From Escherichia phage vB_EcoS-12210I: a DNA stretch of 44,219 nt. Position numbers and translations under genes: made by a program. Of this stretch, positions 10,950-37,537 are shown in pieces; position 1 is the first letter of the stretch, and every line of letters starts with the position of its first letter. The notes below the pieces were generated by a model. It was not told where the DNA came from, ran no database searches, and worked only from the letters and a program-made list of their open reading frames with translations. Where the stretch lies: sequence record NC_049813.1, one strand, 5' to 3'.

Positions 10950-13925
10950 TTAGTTGAATCCACGAAGGTAGGCATACGCCCTACCACCCTGCTGGAAGGA
11001 CTGAGCAATCTCTTCGGCTACGATAGCCTTGACTCCGCTTTGCAGTGCCTTAGCTTGTTCTGGGTCGCTACCTACACCCGAGTTTACGTTAACAGTGATA
11101 CCACTAACATTAACATCTGCTCCACCAGAAACCAAACCACCATTTGCATAACCAGAAGGGCCACCAACAACACCGCCATTTGCGTAACCCTTCATTAGTG
11201 CGTAAAGGTTCTTAACACCAATTCTGCTAGTCGCTTCTTTTGTGAATACAAACTCACCGCGGTGCACCGTTCCTGCTGGCTGATACTTACCACCATTGCC
11301 AGTATAGCCGCCACCAGCAAAACCCAGGCCAGAAGCAATTGAACCAAAGGCGCCGCCAGTACCGCCGAAGCTACTTAAACTGGACTCAATAGCCTTGACA
11401 ATAAGAAGCTGAGTTGCAATCTTGGCAATCATTTTGAGGATGCTTGCTGTGAACTCCCTAAAATTGGTCTCACCAGTGGTTACAAGGTTTGTAATTTGCT
11501 CTGTTATCCCGTCAAATGCCGCAACGGTTAAGTCCTTAGCAATCTGGTTGTAGTCAGTGTACTTATCTGTCAAGTCAGCGAGAGTGGATATTACACCGGA
11601 TTGCCAGTCTGACCTAAGATTATCCTCTTGCTTGTAGTATTCCTTTCTTGCTTCCAGCAATTGCTGAAAATCAACATCATCAAGAGAGCCACCAGCATTG
11701 ACCTGATTGGACTGAAGAGCCTGAATCTCTTTGGCTCTTTGCAGTTCACGAGATGATAGTCCAGTACCCAAATTAATATTGCTTGCCTCATTGTTAATCT
11801 GAAGAATCTTCTTGCGGTTATCTTCAGCCAACTTATTAGCTCGCTCCTGCAAAGCAATCTGATCACCTAGCTCAGCCTTCTGTCTTGCCAGCTCAAGAAC
11901 TTTATCCTTTTCAATGAGAAGTCTTGCTTGCTCTTTGGTAATTGAGCCATCAAGTTGCCTCTGCTCAAGAATCTGGAATTTGGCAACCTCCTGAAGATAC
12001 TGCTTGCGCTCATTGCTTATTACCGCGCCGATATCCCTGTTTTCCTGAAGAACCTTGAGCTGAGCCTGGAGCGCCAACACGCCAGATTCGTAACCAATTG
12101 TAAGGTCTCTTTGCTCTTTAACCCTACCATTTTCTTCTTTCCTGCTCTTCTTGATCGCATCAAGTTCATCCTGAAGCGCCTTCTTCCTTTTTGCAAACTC
12201 CTCATCAGTACCTGATTGCTCATTGGAATTCTGATTTTCCCTGCGTGTAACGTAACCAAGTTCTCCCTCTCTGATTCTGGCATCTCTCTCCCTGATAGAC
12301 TTCTCTAGCTCAAGGTTTTGCTTCTTGGCGGCATCGATAATCTTCTGCTGACTCTTGATTACATCATCACCGACACCATCAAGGCCTGGGATATTCTGCA
12401 ATGCCTGAGTTGCACTAATTACAAACTCACCAATCAGCGCGTCACCTTGGTTAATGAAGACCTTAATCTGTTCAATTGTCCCGGCTATTACATCAACAAA
12501 CAGGTTTAGCGCCCCAACCGTTCTGCGACTAATCGCATCCCATACATCAGATATGTACTTCCTGAAGTCATTCCAGGCCAATTCAAGAGGAGTAAGCTGG
12601 GCTGCAATATCGTTAAGGTTTGCTTCCTGTGATTTGCTAAATATATCAATAGCAGCAGTTACGGCTTCAACCTCACCCCTAGTCTCTCTCAATCTTTCAA
12701 TTGTTGTTAACTGCCCCTGAGTAAGGAAGTTAAACCTCTTGTCTAAATCAGCAAGTCCTTGAATTGGGTCGCTCGCAATCTGGTTATAGTAACCAGTAAT
12801 TTCCTTTGCATCCTTACCTGTCAACTGCGCCCATCTGGCGGTAGATTTAGTAATCTTGTCAATCTGCGTCAGCGTAAGGTTCCCTTGCTCAATAAGGCTT
12901 GTTGCGATGCTAGTCACAAGTCCTCTGGTTGCACCAGTAGCATCAGAAACAGAGCTAACCAACTCTCTAACCTGCGAGATTGATGCGATTGTGGAGTTGT
13001 TTGAGAACGCAATGGCAGAATTTAATGCTCTGAATTCACTCTCTGCCTGGGCAGCACCGATACCTAGAGCAACAAGCGCGCCACCCAAAACCCCAACAGC
13101 AACATTGAATGGATTTAAGGCTGCAAGCGCGAATCTAAAGGTGTTACCAATACCTCCAAATGCATCCTTAATTTGTCCGCCTTGCTGAATTGCAATAAGC
13201 CAAATCGGAATGCCGCCAGCAAGTGATGTCCCAATATCTGTAATCTGCGCTGGCAATTGAGAGATTGCAGCCTTGTATTGGCCTGCGCTTAAGCCAGAGC
13301 GTTGAAAGGCCTTGCTCTGAGCAATTAGCTGGGTGTTTGCCTTCTGTGATGCATCGGCGATTCTGTCAATAATAGGCGCTGCCTGAGAACTTACGCCAAG
13401 CTGAGCAGCCTGTAATTTTAAGTACTCCTCACGCGTCAATGTTGCCGCTTGAGCCTGACGCTCAAGTGATGCAATGAATCTATCCGCTTCAGCCTTTGCC
13501 TTTGCCTTATCCTTTGCAGCTTGCGCTGCCGCTCTACCCTCTTCAGTTAGTGCCGCACGTGAACGAGCAAGTTTTGCGTTCTGCGTTTCAAGCGCCTCAC
13601 CTAAGCGGAAAAACTCCTCATCAGGAACTACGCCAGCCGCGAATGCCTTATCAAGACCTACCGCTGCCTCTTGCAGCTTACGGAACTTTGCCGCAGTTGG
13701 GTCAATAGCCGTTTGCAATTTAGCCAAAGATGCTTGCTGTTCAGCAAGTGCGCGAGCCGTGTCTCTAGCCTGGTTTTTAGCAACCTGCTCAGCGTTGACG
13801 AACTCACTAATACCGGAAGCAGCCTGCTGGTTTGCCTGCCTGAACTTTTGTAGGGACTGCGTACCCCTGTCTACTTGCGATACGTCTACGGCTAGTGTGA
13901 TTCCGGCTAATTCATTTGTTGCCAT
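10950..13925 (-). CDS. Tail tape measure protein, 991 aa
   Basis: Long Ala/Gln/Glu-rich helical protein with Gly-rich C-terminus, downstream of G/GT. Confidence 0.8.
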   Translation of the reverse strand: MATNELAGITLAVDVSQVDRGTQSLQKFRQANQQAASGISEFVNAEQVAKNQARDTARALAEQQASLAKLQTAIDPTAAKFRKLQEAAVGLDKAFAAGVVPDEEFFRLGEALETQNAKLARSRAALTEEGRAAAQAAKDKAKAKAEADRFIASLERQAQAATLTREEYLKLQAAQLGVSSQAAPIIDRIADASQKANTQLIAQSKAFQRSGLSAGQYKAAISQLPAQITDIGTSLAGGIPIWLIAIQQGGQIKDAFGGIGNTFRFALAALNPFNVAVGVLGGALVALGIGAAQAESEFRALNSAIAFSNNSTIASISQVRELVSSVSDATGATRGLVTSIATSLIEQGNLTLTQIDKITKSTARWAQLTGKDAKEITGYYNQIASDPIQGLADLDKRFNFLTQGQLTTIERLRETRGEVEAVTAAIDIFSKSQEANLNDIAAQLTPLELAWNDFRKYISDVWDAISRRTVGALNLFVDVIAGTIEQIKVFINQGDALIGEFVISATQALQNIPGLDGVGDDVIKSQQKIIDAAKKQNLELEKSIRERDARIREGELGYVTRRENQNSNEQSGTDEEFAKRKKALQDELDAIKKSRKEENGRVKEQRDLTIGYESGVLALQAQLKVLQENRDIGAVISNERKQYLQEVAKFQILEQRQLDGSITKEQARLLIEKDKVLELARQKAELGDQIALQERANKLAEDNRKKILQINNEASNINLGTGLSSRELQRAKEIQALQSNQVNAGGSLDDVDFQQLLEARKEYYKQEDNLRSDWQSGVISTLADLTDKYTDYNQIAKDLTVAAFDGITEQITNLVTTGETNFREFTASILKMIAKIATQLLIVKAIESSLSSFGGTGGAFGSIASGLGFAGGGYTGNGGKYQPAGTVHRGEFVFTKEATSRIGVKNLYALMKGYANGGVVGGPSGYANGGLVSGGADVNVSGITVNVNSGVGSDPEQAKALQSGVKAIVAEEIAQSFQQGGRAYAYLRGFN

Positions 13926-13940
13926 CTAAGCCTCCATAAT

Positions 13941-13970
13941 AGAAAACCCGCCGAAGCGGGTTATTTTTTT
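13941..13970. terminator. Hairpin with runs on both sides (GT-tape measure junction)
   Basis: ACCCGC-CGAA-GCGGGT; T7 on plus side. Confidence 0.5.
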
Positions 13971-14595
13971 CTCAGGTTGTCCATCATCTCAAGAGCTTTA
14001 GCTTCAAGGATGCGTAAATCACTGAGCACCAATTCTTCTTCAGAAACATTATACACTCTAAAGAGGAAATTTAGCACGTTGTAATCAAGACCTGTTACTC
14101 CATTAGCTCCGACTCGCCACTGTGTAGCCATTGAACAATAAATGTCCCACGCCTTCATCATGTTATCGTCGAAGTGCAAAACTTCAGGCTCTTCGTCTTC
14201 GTAATCAGAGCGGCGCATCCCAATAGCTTCCAGTTCGGCATCAGTTGGTTCTGACTGGTACTGTAGATACACCGCTCGTTTTAGTTTTTTACACGCTGAC
14301 CAGCCAGTGCTTGCATATAGGCGGTAGTTAGCGCAACGGTTGAAGCAGGGAATAGGTCACAGAACTCATTAACGTTATCCTCGTTGTATTCCTCTTCCAA
14401 GTCCCAGTCAGAGGCAATTGCCATAATAAGCTCTTTGGTGCTCAAGTCTTCCTTTCTAAGTAATTCCTGCAACTCAGATGTTTTCTTATGTTTGACTGTA
14501 AAGATAACCTCTACATCCTGGTCGTTAGCCAGCTTAAATTTTACAGGCAACTTAAAGTCAGGGAGTGCTGCCAGTGAAAGTTTGAACTTTGCCAT
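13961..14595 (-). CDS. Tail assembly chaperone GT fusion made by -1 programmed frameshift
   Basis: Slippery heptamer AAAAAAC at 14284-14290 abuts the G stop; the -1 frame is open into the downstream ORF. Confidence 0.65.
14281..14595 (-). CDS. Tail assembly chaperone G-like, 104 aa
   Basis: Acidic small protein between major tail protein and tape measure. Confidence 0.7.
   Translation of the reverse strand: MAKFKLSLAALPDFKLPVKFKLANDQDVEVIFTVKHKKTSELQELLRKEDLSTKELIMAIASDWDLEEEYNEDNVNEFCDLFPASTVALTTAYMQALAGQRVKN
14284..14290 (-). other. -1 frameshift slippery site A_AAA_AAC
   Basis: X_XXY_YYZ heptamer in the G frame, 0 nt before the TAA stop. Confidence 0.65.
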
Positions 14596-14633
14596 TTTGT
14601 TAATCCTCTTATTGTTTGTGAGTGTGTATTCTA

Positions 14634-14882
14634 TTACTTAGTGTTTTCTTTTGCAATCTTAGCAGCGGTATCCTTGCAAATCTCGCTACCATATTTCATG
14701 ATTTGGTCAACTTTACCACCTACCAAACCCTTGCAAACTCGCTCGGCCTTAGCAAACTCAAAGTTATATTCGCTTGCCTTTGCATTGGCATAAGTCTCGC
14801 CAGTTGGGTTAACAATCTTAACTACCGCATAAAAAGCAACCAGAACCGCAGTAAGTTTGATGATGTTTTTAACGTTATTCAT
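14634..14882 (-). CDS. Moron-like secreted or membrane-anchored small protein, 82 aa
   Basis: N-terminal hydrophobic signal/anchor; own promoter-like module upstream and terminator-flanked; lies inside the tail gene cluster. Confidence 0.5.
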   Translation of the reverse strand: MNNVKNIIKLTAVLVAFYAVVKIVNPTGETYANAKASEYNFEFAKAERVCKGLVGGKVDQIMKYGSEICKDTAAKIAKENTK

Positions 14883-14964: not shown

Positions 14965-14986
14965 AAAAAACCCTCCGAAGAGGGTT
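14965..14986 (-). terminator. Rho-independent terminator after the major tail protein gene
   Basis: CCCTC-CGAAG-AGGG followed by T6. Confidence 0.65.
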
Positions 14987-14992
14987 TGTGTT

Positions 14993-15649
14993 TTAAACTT
15001 TAGCTGCCACGGAGGACAGTCGACCACGAATGGATACCGCCATGGATACCGTTTCGATTTCGTTGACACCAATGGCAGGGATGTCATTGAAAGAGATAGT
15101 GCCGGACTGCAAGCGCATTTCCTGAGCGCGAGGTACGAACAGACGAATCGCAACAACCTGGCCAGACTCATCGTATTTACGCAGAACCGGATAGACCGGG
15201 TTGGTGTACTCGTGAGCAAAGGTGAAGGTGTTTGTTACCGCAGATTTATAAGTCGGAATCTGCTGTTCGCGTTCGTCAGAAAGGCACTGGAAGTTAACAA
15301 ACTGCTGTTCGCCGCCGTCAGTAGATACGTCCTGAACACACGGGACTTCGATCCATGAATTAATCTTAACAACCTCACCAGTTAAGCCAGCAGGGAACTT
15401 AGTGGCGTCGGAGGTATCAATACCTTCAACTGTTACCGAAGTGCCAGAAACTTCAGTTACTCGCACCTGTTTGTCGCTAAGTAGGGTTGAGCTGGAGGCG
15501 GTAAACAGAAGGTAGTCACCCTTAGCCAGGCCAGATGCGCTAGATACGGTTAAAACTGGTTTAGTTGCGTTAGAGATTTTAGTTACGTTAATTGGAGTTC
15601 CGCGAGTTCCTTCTACGAAGACCTGCGTGCCATTTGATAAATGAGCCAT
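14993..15649 (-). CDS. Major tail protein
   Basis: 218 aa immediately upstream of G/GT. Confidence 0.7.
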   Translation of the reverse strand: MAHLSNGTQVFVEGTRGTPINVTKISNATKPVLTVSSASGLAKGDYLLFTASSSTLLSDKQVRVTEVSGTSVTVEGIDTSDATKFPAGLTGEVVKINSWIEVPCVQDVSTDGGEQQFVNFQCLSDEREQQIPTYKSAVTNTFTFAHEYTNPVYPVLRKYDESGQVVAIRLFVPRAQEMRLQSGTISFNDIPAIGVNEIETVSMAVSIRGRLSSVAAKV

Positions 15650-37123: not shown

Positions 37124-37537
37124 TGAAATCATTTCTCTAAATGCAGCAAGAAAACCCTCGCGACCGTACGCCACGGCAGCGAAGCCGCCTGACTCTCTTA
37201 CGCTTTTAAGGAAGGACTTCTGCTCGTTACTGACTGGACTAGCCTGGGTTTTTCCTGCCCTCTTTAGCTCTATGGCTCCGAAAGGGTACTTTCCTCTGAT
37301 AGATTCGGGAATAAGAAACATACAGTCTGATACGCCTTTGAGAAGCCCTTTAGCCTGGTCCTTTCTTGCTTGACCAATGGTTTTTTTGCCCTCATTCACG
37401 CAGTGGAAAAATACCATCTCTGGATAGTTATACTTAACCCAATCAGAGCAAAAGATTTGTTCGTCATCCTCTTTCGGACACGACTTAACCGGTCCAGAGT
37501 AAAACTCAATGTAATCAAATTTGTCTGTAATGTTCAT
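37118..37537 (-). CDS. VRR-NUC family nuclease (putative)
   Basis: PD-(D/E)xK-like GVSDCMFLI...GAIELKRAG. Confidence 0.5.
   Translation of the reverse strand: MNITDKFDYIEFYSGPVKSCPKEDDEQIFCSDWVKYNYPEMVFFHCVNEGKKTIGQARKDQAKGLLKGVSDCMFLIPESIRGKYPFGAIELKRAGKTQASPVSNEQKSFLKSVRESGGFAAVAYGREGFLAAFREMISK

What the first reader, a model, noticed from the sequence alone, without database searches (positions are those of the whole stretch)
13961..14595. Programmed -1 frameshift in the tail assembly chaperone pair
The slippery heptamer AAAAAAC (14284-14290, minus strand) directly abuts the stop of the G-like ORF. The -1 frame is open from there into the 103-aa downstream ORF (joining sequence ...QRVKK-LKRAV-YLQYQ...), predicting a roughly 207-aa GT fusion as in lambda G/GT.
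Basis: partly seen in the sequence, partly recalled or inferred. Interest (0 to 1): 0.4.

Follow-up and report, generated by a model that had tools for sequence, protein, structure and literature searches.

The report
Tail-chaperone −1 frameshift, T1-like phage
This is the usual ribosome-slipping signal by which a long-tailed phage (here a T1/Rtp-like E. coli phage) makes a little of a longer tail-assembly chaperone from two overlapping genes. It passes every sequence test I could run, but the same signal is already annotated in relatives such as phage TLS, so it is ordinary.

Summary
On the minus strand the 104-aa ORF 14595..14281 ends GTA AAA AAC TAA. The heptamer A_AAA_AAC (14290..14284) is in the correct phase and directly abuts the stop. 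The −1 frame is open from 14356 to 13964, so a shift gives a 211-aa fusion, not about 207 aa. The ORFs lie between the major tail gene and the tape measure gene. They match Pfam Phage_TAC_4 (1e-33) and DUF1799 (2e-16), and the fusion matches phrog_17368 end to end (5e-82).

The heptamer alone is not above chance: 13 copies in the genome against 12.6 expected. Its position, phase and conservation are. Of 42 distinct relatives, 36 keep AAAAAAC-TAA while neighbouring synonymous sites vary freely. In a Dhillonvirus the −1 frame opens only 2 codons before the stop. The GTG "start" of the downstream ORF is not conserved and lacks a Shine-Dalgarno sequence.

A predicted 18-bp stem starts 6 nt after the heptamer (−31.7 kcal/mol, z −4.4), but it shows no covariation.

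TLS, Stevie and Sparks already annotate the homologous pair as a joined CDS. This phage's own record, and five other Braunvirinae records, do not. Verdict: a real, already-known kind of signal and an annotation gap. Low interest.

The parts
14281..14595 (-). G-like tail assembly chaperone ORF, 104 aa, ATG at 14595 and TAA at 14283..14281. The Shine-Dalgarno sequence AGAGGA lies at 14609..14604, 8 nt before the ATG.
   Evidence: ORF list. Pfam Phage_TAC_4 E=1.2e-33 over the full length. phrog_569 E=2e-39. Sequence read.
14284..14290 (-). Slippery heptamer A_AAA_AAC in the X_XXY_YYZ phase; AAA and AAC are the last two sense codons of the chaperone ORF.
   Evidence: Invariant in 36 of 42 distinct relatives, while the next Lys codon is AAA in 23 and AAG in 12.
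14281..14283 (-). Zero-frame UAA stop directly 3' of the heptamer. It is also the UA of the −1-frame Leu codon CUA plus the first A of the next Lys codon.
   Evidence: TAA is invariant in all 42 distinct relatives, and the −1-frame Leu is always CTA in the 36 A6C sequences.
13961..14284 (-). T-like −1-frame segment, 107 codons plus stop, beginning with CTA at 14284. The mechanical ORF call starts at GTG 14272. The predicted 211-aa fusion CDS is complement(join(13961..14287,14287..14595)).
   Evidence: Pfam DUF1799 E=2.2e-16. The fusion matches phrog_17368 over 1-210 of 213 positions, E=5.5e-82. The −1 frame is open 24 codons upstream and 107 downstream of the stop.
14208..14277 (-). Predicted stimulatory stem-loop. 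The spacer UAAAAC is 6 nt. The outer 18-bp stem pairs 14277..14259 with 14225..14208, with one bulged A at 14264, and encloses two short inner helices. The GTG at 14272..14270 lies inside the 5' arm.
   Evidence: MFE −31.7 kcal/mol, z −4.37, 0 of 200 shuffles as stable. It also forms in Rtp (z −4.99) and ECH1 (z −2.63). 98% of cells are paired in 13 distinct clade members, but there are no compensatory changes. The role is inferred.
14993..15649 (-). Major tail (tube) protein gene, upstream context.
   Evidence: Pfam Phage_tail_3 E=6.6e-67 and phrog_584 E=6e-88.
10950..13925 (-). Tape measure protein gene, downstream context. Strong GGAGG Shine-Dalgarno sequence before the ATG at 13925.
   Evidence: Pfam TMP_2 E=5e-49 and Tape_meas_lam_C E=2e-16; phrog_24 E=2e-230. 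Sequence read.

Best explanation
The window is the complete 44,219-bp genome of a T1/Rtp-like coliphage (Drexlerviridae, Braunvirinae, Veterinaerplatzvirus vv12210I).

Most ribosomes translating the chaperone gene 14595..14281 terminate at UAA and release a 104-aa chaperone. A small fraction slip one base backwards on A_AAA_AAC (14290..14284). They then read AAA AAA CUA AAA CGA... in the −1 frame down to 13964 and make a 211-aa fusion of the Phage_TAC_4 and DUF1799 domains.

The slip relies on E. coli's single tRNA-Lys(UUU), which re-pairs perfectly from AAA to AAA. Two features probably help it: the pause at the abutting UAA stop, and an 18-bp interrupted stem that starts 6 nt downstream and would sit at the mRNA entrance when the heptamer is being decoded.

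By analogy with lambda gpG and gpGT, both proteins would coat the tape measure protein through the shared N-terminal domain, and the rare C-terminal extension would recruit the major tail protein. Neither protein would end up in the virion.

What is shown here: the anatomy, the phase, the family membership of both domains, the conservation of the signal, and selection on the −1 frame upstream of any start codon. What is inferred: that the shift occurs, how efficient it is, the roles of the stop and the stem, and the assembly function.
For: 1. Anatomy and phase.
2. Gene order is tail tube, TAC, −1 ORF, tape measure, with strong Pfam and PHROG matches. The fusion covers phrog_17368 end to end at E=5.5e-82, so full-length fusions of this kind are already in phage databases.
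3. Of 42 distinct homologous segments from 50 loci, 36 carry AAAAAAC-TAA. In those 36 both heptamer Lys codons are always AAA and Leu is always CTA. The next Lys is AAA 23 / AAG 12, Arg uses 6 codons, Val uses 4, and a later Leu is CTA 17 / CTG 17. The last 12 zero-frame codons before the heptamer nearly all vary within the Rtp-like clade.
4. The lineages keeping the heptamer span 27-100% chaperone identity: Rtp-like, TLS-like, T1-like, Warwickvirus, Vilniusvirus, Sauletekiovirus, Christensenvirus and Dhillonvirus. In Dhillonvirus GeorgBuechner the −1 frame opens only 2 codons before the stop, which pins the shift to the heptamer.
5. Only 15 GTG and 1 ATG among the 36 could start the downstream ORF. 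The rest have GTT, GTC, GTA or GCG, yet LKRAV upstream of that codon is conserved by synonymous changes.
6. TLS tfmS, Stevie and Sparks ('frameshift product') are annotated as two-piece CDSs of 638, 632 and 641 nt. Each becomes divisible by 3 only when one base is added, which means a −1 join. The Stevie paper states 'conserved translational frameshift' (PMC4319613). Kropinski et al. proposed a G-T-type fusion for the Rogunavirus Rogue1 (PMC3496638).
7. A_AAA_AAC is a proven −1 site in E. coli, in IS1 (PMC4066793).
8. The downstream stem has z −4.4 with a 6-nt spacer. T1 and TLS have a different local hairpin, GGCGGUUU/AAACCGCC, 7 nt downstream (z −2.4 and −2.3).
Against: - No protein-level evidence was found for any T1-like phage.
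- A_AAA_AAC is a weak shifter in E. coli reporters: 0.16% alone, 0.19% with the IS911 stimulators, and 0.74% with the IS3 pseudoknot (supplement of PMC4066793). The yield may therefore be below 1%.
- The stem shows no covariation; 15 of the 18 outer pairs never vary.
- Synonymous variation is lower in the stem arms (3 of 13 codons against 36 of 76 outside), but not significantly (Fisher p=0.135).
- Both arms encode conserved peptides, so protein constraint could explain their invariance.
- Some relatives show no significant structure: phiJLA23 z +0.24, Sd1 0.00, AAS23 +0.24.
- The heptamer is not enriched in the genome overall.
Confidence: 0.87

Rival explanations
1. The shift happens one step later, as a 'shifty stop' event. 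AAC with tRNA-Asn is in the P site and UAA waits in the A site. The tRNA-Asn slips back onto AAA and CUA is read next. The product is again 211 aa, but the junction is ...VKN-LKR... instead of ...VKK-LKR....
For: UAA directly abuts the heptamer in all 36 A6C relatives. A stop lies at most one codon away in the 6 variant sequences, AAAGGTC-TAA and AAAAGTT-TAA. Stop codons 3' of slippery runs are an established stimulator (Weiss et al. 1987, 'shifty stops', cited in PMC5009743). A-site re-pairing of tRNA-Asn from AAC to AAA is near-cognate and weak in E. coli, consistent with the 0.16-0.74% reporter values.
Against: tRNA-Asn re-pairs no better in the P site than in the A site. The conserved TAA may simply follow from the −1-frame codons CUA AAR, encoding the conserved Leu-Lys. 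The Rogunavirus and Webervirus variants (A_AAG, A_AAA) point to tRNA-Lys as the slipping tRNA.
Confidence: 0.2
2. The downstream 103-aa ORF is made on its own. It would start either by direct initiation at GTG 14272 or by termination-reinitiation after the UAA 9 nt upstream. The heptamer would then be incidental.
For: GTG (ATG in ECH1) is present at this position in all 13 distinct Rtp-like sequences. Annotation pipelines call it as a separate CDS in this phage and in relatives. The stop-to-GTG distance is short.
Against: - There is no Shine-Dalgarno sequence; only GAG lies 2 nt before the GTG.
- The GTG sits inside the 5' arm of the predicted stem.
- 20 of the 36 A6C relatives have a non-start codon there (GTT, GTC, GTA, GCG).
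- The −1-frame codons between the stop and the GTG (L-K-R-A) evolve by synonymous change, so they are translated.
- Other annotators had to choose internal ATGs that cut the DUF1799 domain, for example TLS tfmB at 66 aa and phiJLA23 gp09 at 85 aa.
Confidence: 0.06
3. The frame change is made by RNA polymerase. Transcriptional slippage on the A6 run adds or drops an A, giving a subpopulation of mRNAs that encode the fusion directly.
For: The site is a homopolymeric A run. Transcriptional slippage is used by some bacterial IS elements (Baranov et al. 2005, cited in PMC4066793).
Against: From established knowledge, productive slippage by E. coli RNA polymerase needs runs of about 8-9 or more A/T, and A6 is too short. 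The conserved element is the phased A6C heptamer, not run length. The variant lineages have only A3-A4 (GCAAAGG, GCAAAAG) at the same place, which fits tRNA-Lys slippage and not polymerase slippage.
Confidence: 0.03
4. It is a chance juxtaposition. Two independent small genes happen to overlap near a run of A's and no fusion is made.
For: AAAAAAC occurs 13 times in the genome, as expected by chance.
Against: - Phase, position and the decamer are conserved in 36 of 42 distinct relatives down to 27% protein identity.
- This is the only genuine gene pair in the genome with an in-phase heptamer in a −1 overlap.
- The gene pair sits at the one locus where such a frameshift is the rule in long-tailed phages (PMC5009743).
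Confidence: 0.02

Closest known systems
Phage TLS tfmA/tfmS, and the homologous 'tape measure chaperone' pairs of Citrobacter phage Stevie and Klebsiella phage Sparks (Drexlerviridae and relatives)
   Same: Orthologous genes, with 42-58% chaperone identity, in the same place between the tail tube and tape measure genes. TLS and Stevie carry the identical GTA AAA AAC TAA followed by the −1-frame L-K-R-A-V. All three are deposited as two-piece joined CDSs consistent with a −1 shift.
   Different: - TLS, T1 and Stevie have a local hairpin (GGCGGUUU ... AAACCGCC) 7 nt downstream. The window and its Braunvirinae relatives instead pair the same 5' region with a segment about 45 nt further on.
- Sparks has a different slip site, GCA AAA GTT TAA.
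- This phage's own record annotates two separate hypothetical proteins.
Bacteriophage lambda gpG/gpGT (Levin, Hendrix and Casjens 1993; Xu, Hendrix and Duda 2004, 2013, 2014)
   Same: Same gene order (V-G-T-H against tube-TAC-T-TMP). [quoted passage not shown] A low ratio is expected; lambda's G:GT ratio is about 30:1 (PMC5009743).
   Different: - Lambda uses G_GGA_AAG six codons before the G stop, not A_AAA_AAC abutting the stop.
- Lambda G and T belong to Pfam Phage_TAC_2 and Phage_tail_T, whereas these ORFs belong to Phage_TAC_4 and DUF1799.
- BLASTP finds no similarity, E=1.2.
- The lambda shift is experimentally proven; this one is not.
IS1 insA-insB' −1 frameshift
   Same: The same heptamer, A_AAA_AAC, decoded by E. 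coli ribosomes. It is a proven low-efficiency −1 shift that fuses two ORFs (PMC4066793).
   Different: It belongs to a transposable element, not a phage structural module. IS1 has no established stimulator, whereas here a stop abuts the site and a stable stem is predicted 6 nt downstream.
Rogunavirus Rogue1 gp30/gp31 (Kropinski et al. 2012)
   Same: Same family and homologous genes. A G-T-type fusion was proposed from synteny and a downstream structure (PMC3496638).
   Different: phiJLA23-type Rogunavirus relatives read GCA AAG GTC TAA, a tetramer A_AAG site one codon before the stop, rather than the heptamer. My fold of the phiJLA23 region showed no significant nested structure (z +0.24). Pseudoknots were not tested.

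Membership tests
Conserved G/GT-type tail assembly chaperone frameshift of long-tailed phages (Xu, Hendrix and Duda 2004) | Two small ORFs lie between the major tail (tube) gene and the tape measure gene, on the same strand. | tested here: met
   Tube gene 15649..14993, chaperone 14595..14281, −1 ORF ..13961, tape measure gene 13925..10950, all on the minus strand. An extra 82-aa ORF (14882..14634) lies between the tube gene and the chaperone.
Conserved G/GT-type tail assembly chaperone frameshift of long-tailed phages (Xu, Hendrix and Duda 2004) | The second ORF overlaps the end of the first in another frame and lacks its own conserved start and ribosome-binding site. | tested here: met
   The −1 frame is open 24 codons upstream of the stop. 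There is no Shine-Dalgarno sequence before GTG 14272. A start codon is absent there in 20 of 36 relatives.
Conserved G/GT-type tail assembly chaperone frameshift of long-tailed phages (Xu, Hendrix and Duda 2004) | A slippery sequence lies in the correct phase inside the overlap and is conserved among relatives. | tested here: met
   A_AAA_AAC at 14290..14284. 36 of 42 distinct relatives keep it. The other 6 have A_AAG or A_AAA tetramers at the same spot.
Conserved G/GT-type tail assembly chaperone frameshift of long-tailed phages (Xu, Hendrix and Duda 2004) | The fusion protein is actually made, at a low fixed ratio, and is needed for tail assembly. | not testable with these tools
   No experimental report for T1-like phages was found in the searchable literature.
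Pfam Phage_TAC_4 (PF08748) and DUF1799 (PF08809) chaperone pair of T1-like phages | Sequence match above the curated cut-off for both domains. | tested here: met
   116.4 bits against a cut-off of 21.1, and 60.3 bits against 26. The fusion matches phrog_17368 over its full length.
Lambda gpG / gpT protein families (Pfam Phage_TAC_2, Phage_tail_T) | Sequence membership in the same families as lambda G and T. | tested here: not met
   Lambda G and T hit PF06894 and PF06223. The window's ORFs hit neither. BLASTP gives E=1.2. The pair works like lambda G/GT but is not a sequence-level member. Fold-level relatedness was not tested.
Canonical −1 programmed ribosomal frameshift signal (heptamer, spacer, 3' structure) | X_XXY_YYZ heptamer in phase. 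| tested here: met
   The motif is experimentally shift-prone in E. coli, though weak at 0.16-0.74%.
Canonical −1 programmed ribosomal frameshift signal (heptamer, spacer, 3' structure) | A stable RNA structure lies 5-9 nt downstream and is supported by evolution. | tested here: inconclusive
   A stem starts 6 nt downstream, −31.7 kcal/mol, z −4.4, and is preserved in 13 clade members. There are 0 compensatory changes and synonymous suppression is not significant (p=0.135). Other clades have different hairpins or none. There is no Rfam match.

The most novel reading that the evidence does not exclude
The conserved unit may be the decamer A_AAA_AAC_UAA rather than the heptamer: a weak heptamer combined with a 'shifty stop'. 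It is kept across Drexlerviridae and Dhillonvirus even though A_AAA_AAC shifts at under 1% in E. coli reporters. Its RNA stimulator would turn over between lineages: a local GGCGG/CCGCC hairpin in T1, TLS and Dhillonvirus, a long-range 18-bp stem in Braunvirinae, and no stem but a shiftier A_AAG tetramer in most Rogunaviruses. If so, T1-like phages either need far less fusion protein than lambda or reach a lambda-like ratio through the stop and the stem. The family would then be a natural series for studying how slip-site strength and stimulator strength compensate each other.
Probability: 0.3. Interest if true: 0.3.

Novelty: already known. Interest (0 to 1): 0.1.

Why it matters
Mostly for annotation. 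The deposited record of this phage species and five other Braunvirinae records inspected (ECH1, BEK1-1, FP, SCS31, TR1) list two separate small proteins. These are labelled 'hypothetical', 'tail length tape measure protein' (a wrong name), or, in TR1, 'tail assembly chaperone' and 'TfmS'. A chaperone plus its frameshift-extended form would be the correct annotation. Correcting it gives a 211-aa product, complement(join(13961..14287,14287..14595)).

Biologically it adds one more instance of a rule that is already well established for long-tailed phages.

The only mildly new points are comparative. The weak A_AAA_AAC-UAA signal is almost universal in the T1 family. The predicted downstream stimulator also differs between subfamilies.

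Tried and rejected
- Genome-wide count of AAAAAAC: not enriched, so the motif alone is no evidence.
- Rfam scan of 13900-14700: no frameshift element, only a sub-threshold rsmX chance hit.
- PDB sequence search with the fusion: nothing relevant, best E=0.11.
- Covariation test of the predicted stem on 13 distinct Braunvirinae sequences: no compensatory pairs. The test is uninformative because the arms are nearly invariant.
- Synonymous-site suppression in the stem arms: a trend only, p=0.135.
- An upstream Shine-Dalgarno-like stimulator as in dnaX: none in the 30 nt before the heptamer (read).
- Other slip sites in the 24-codon overlap: C_CCT exists upstream. It was rejected because relatives close the −1 frame 2-13 codons before the stop.
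- Second genomic candidate, CCCTTTA at 37346 (+): rejected as antisense to a real minus-strand gene.
- Literature searches for experimental evidence in T1, Rtp or TLS: only annotation-level statements were found.
- The metagenome scan added just 10 loci, all close to known clades.
- Not run: the large protein-database searches and structure prediction. The Pfam, PHROG and annotation evidence already settled family membership, so the cost was not justified.

Full report
**What the window is.** Megablast of the region finds 41 GenBank records of exactly 44,219 bp at 100% identity, with circularly permuted starts. They are the 'Escherichia phage vB_EcoS-...' series, MK9072xx. One of them is classified Drexlerviridae; Braunvirinae; Veterinaerplatzvirus vv12210I. 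The window is therefore a whole genome of a T1/Rtp-like siphophage of E. coli.

**The observation.** Reading the minus strand, the 104-aa ORF 14595..14281 ends ...CAG CGT GTA AAA AAC TAA.
- AAAAAAC is at 14290..14284, exactly as stated, and is phased A_AAA_AAC.
- TAA (14283..14281) follows immediately.
- The −1 frame is open from 14356 (24 codons before the stop) down to 13964, with its stop at 13963..13961.
- The fusion is 211 aa, not about 207, because four codons (LKRA) lie between the slip and the GTG that opens the mechanically called 103-aa ORF.

**Is it more than chance?** The heptamer alone is not. There are 13 copies on both strands against 12.6 ± 3.4 in dinucleotide-preserving shuffles. 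The context is. I scanned the genome for ORFs of ≥80 codons followed by a −1 extension of ≥80 codons. There are 18 such places, and only two have an in-phase X_XXY_YYZ heptamer in the overlap. One is this pair. The other (CCCTTTA, 37346, + strand) is antisense to a 139-aa minus-strand gene and is spurious.

**What the genes are.**

| Gene (minus strand) | Pfam match | PHROG match |
|---|---|---|
| Upstream ORF 15649..14993 | Phage_tail_3, 7e-67 | phrog_584, major tail protein, 6e-88 |
| 104-aa ORF | Phage_TAC_4 over its whole length, 1.2e-33 | phrog_569, 2e-39 |
| −1 ORF | DUF1799, 2.2e-16 | phrog_17368, 3e-39 |
| Downstream ORF 13925..10950 (tape measure) | TMP_2, 5e-49; Tape_meas_lam_C, 2e-16 | phrog_24, 2e-230 |

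The conceptual 211-aa fusion matches phrog_17368 from position 1 to 210 of 213 at E=5.5e-82. That family therefore consists of full-length fusion products that others have already deposited.

**Annotation precedent.** Three relatives carry, besides the short chaperone CDS, a two-piece joined CDS that starts at the same ATG:
- TLS (NC_009540), gene tfmS;
- Citrobacter phage Stevie;

Their spans are 638, 632 and 641 nt. Each becomes a multiple of three only if one base is read twice, which means a −1 join. [quoted passage not shown] Kropinski et al. proposed a G-T-type fusion for the Rogunavirus Rogue1 (PMC3496638).

By contrast, six Braunvirinae records list two separate proteins with no join. 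They are this phage's own species, ECH1, BEK1-1, FP, SCS31 and TR1.

**Comparative test of the signal.** I collected 50 homologous loci from IMG/VR, metagenomes and GenBank. They give 42 distinct 130-nt junction segments.
- 36 read AAAAAAC-TAA, 5 read AAAGGTC-TAA (phiJLA23-type Rogunaviruses) and 1 reads AAAAGTT-TAA (Sparks).
- The 36 span Rtp-like, TLS-like and T1-like phages, Warwickvirus, Vilniusvirus, Sauletekiovirus, Christensenvirus and Dhillonvirus. Chaperone identity runs from 100% down to 27%.
- There is an internal control. In the 36 sequences both Lys codons inside the heptamer are always AAA and the Leu codon is always CTA. The very next Lys is AAA 23 / AAG 12, the next Arg uses six codons (CGA, CGG, CGC, AGA, AGG, plus AAG for Lys), Val uses four, and a later Leu is CTA 17 / CTG 17.
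- Within the Rtp-like clade (16 distinct sequences, 89-93% identical to the window), 76% of degenerate chaperone codons vary. This includes almost every codon in the last twelve before the heptamer. AAA AAC TAA never varies.
- In Dhillonvirus GeorgBuechner the −1 frame is closed by TGA two codons before the stop (cgT GAA AAA AAC TAA). The shift there can occur nowhere but on the heptamer. Other relatives close the −1 frame 9-13 codons upstream. This rules out the other possible slip site in the window's overlap, C_CCT.

**The downstream ORF is not an independent gene.**
- The GTG at 14272 has no Shine-Dalgarno sequence; only GAG lies 2 nt upstream.
- Only 15 GTG and 1 ATG occur at that codon among the 36 sequences. 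The rest are GTT, GTC, GTA or GCG.
- The four −1-frame codons between the zero-frame stop and that codon encode a conserved L-K-R-A through synonymous changes, including CGA to AGG. No zero-frame ORF exists there, so this segment is under selection as −1-frame coding sequence. It can be translated only by ribosomes arriving from the chaperone gene.

**Possible stimulators.**
- No Shine-Dalgarno-like sequence precedes the heptamer.
- The UAA abuts it.
- Six nucleotides downstream (spacer UAAAAC) begins a predicted 18-bp stem with one bulge. It pairs 14277..14259 with 14225..14208 and encloses two short helices: −31.7 kcal/mol, z −4.37, 0 of 200 shuffles as stable.
- The stem also forms in Rtp (z −4.99) and ECH1 (z −2.63). 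It is 98% paired in 13 distinct clade members.
- There are no compensatory changes; 15 of the 18 pairs never vary. Reduced synonymous variation in the arms (3 of 13 against 36 of 76 codons) is not significant (p=0.135).
- T1, TLS and Warwickvirus instead have a local hairpin, GGCGGUUU...AAACCGCC, 7 nt downstream (z −2.4, −2.3, −0.8). Dhillonvirus has GGCGGCG...CGCCGCC.
- phiJLA23, Sd1 and AAS23 show nothing significant.
- No Rfam family matches.

The stem is therefore a reasonable but unproven stimulator, and its form differs between lineages.

**Expected efficiency.** In the systematic E. coli study of Sharma et al., AAAAAAC gave 0.16% without a stimulator, 0.19% with the IS911 stimulators and 0.74% with the IS3 pseudoknot. 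AAAAAAG gave 39% with that pseudoknot (supplement of PMC4066793). A_AAA_AAC is nevertheless a proven natural site in IS1. The tetramers A_AAG and A_AAA, seen in the Rogunavirus and Webervirus variants, are among the six tetramers that respond to a stimulator. Lambda's G:GT ratio is about 30:1 (PMC5009743). The T1-family signal may give less fusion than that unless the stop and the structure raise it.

**Comparison with lambda.** Lambda's site G_GGA_AAG lies six codons before the G stop. Lambda G and T belong to Pfam Phage_TAC_2 and Phage_tail_T. BLASTP between the two chaperones gives E=1.2. The present pair works like lambda G/GT and occupies the same position, but at sequence level it belongs to a different family, Phage_TAC_4 plus DUF1799.

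**Verdict.** The fusion protein, its abundance and the roles of the stop and the stem remain inferred. The same signal in orthologous genes has been annotated since the TLS genome, and the phenomenon is textbook for long-tailed phages. The finding is therefore already known in kind. Its practical value is correcting the annotation of this phage and its Braunvirinae relatives.

Noticed in passing
window 14968-14987 (-) and 13945-13962 (-): Two terminator-like hairpins with UUCG tetraloops and U-rich tails bracket the chaperone cassette. One lies just after the major tail gene. The other overlaps the −1-frame stop, just before the Shine-Dalgarno sequence of the tape measure gene. Stevie's record annotates terminators at the same two places. 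This suggests stepwise transcriptional attenuation from tube to chaperones to tape measure.
   Followed up: partly
window 14634-14882 (-): An 82-aa ORF with a hydrophobic N-terminal segment is inserted between the major tail gene and the chaperone gene. It matches phrog_22925, of unknown function, at E=1e-44. It is present in Braunvirinae relatives (ECH1_27, BEK1-1, FP) and absent from TLS, Stevie and phiJLA23. TR1 has a different 126-aa ORF at that spot.
   Followed up: partly
L002/L012/L014-L017 around 1805-1840; L032 1210-1230: phiJLA23-type Rogunaviruses read GCA AAG GTC TAA and Klebsiella phage Sparks reads GCA AAA GTT TAA at the homologous junction. These are tetramer A_AAG and A_AAA slip sites one codon before the stop, instead of the heptamer. 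Another Rogunavirus, Sd1 (L013), keeps AAAAAAC.
   Followed up: partly
L031 1440-2160: IMG/VR contig 2974611450 has several frame breaks inside its chaperone gene while keeping AAAAAACTAA. These are most likely sequencing or assembly errors rather than biology.
   Followed up: partly
L002, L003 (RefSeq NC_047740, NC_009540) and PHROG families 569, 680, 17368: Both chaperone ORFs and the fusion are labelled 'tail length tape measure protein' in RefSeq and PHROGs. This is a propagated misnomer for the tape measure chaperones.
   Followed up: no
whole window: 41 GenBank records (MK9072xx) have exactly this length and 100% identity over the tested 1.8 kb but start at different positions. The same genome was deposited many times with permuted ends. 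Some of the records carry no annotation.
   Followed up: no
window 37340-37346 (+): This is the only other in-phase X_XXY_YYZ heptamer (CCCTTTA) in a long −1 overlap in the genome. It lies on the strand antisense to a 139-aa minus-strand gene that is coupled to a 664-aa gene, so it is not a real candidate.
   Followed up: yes
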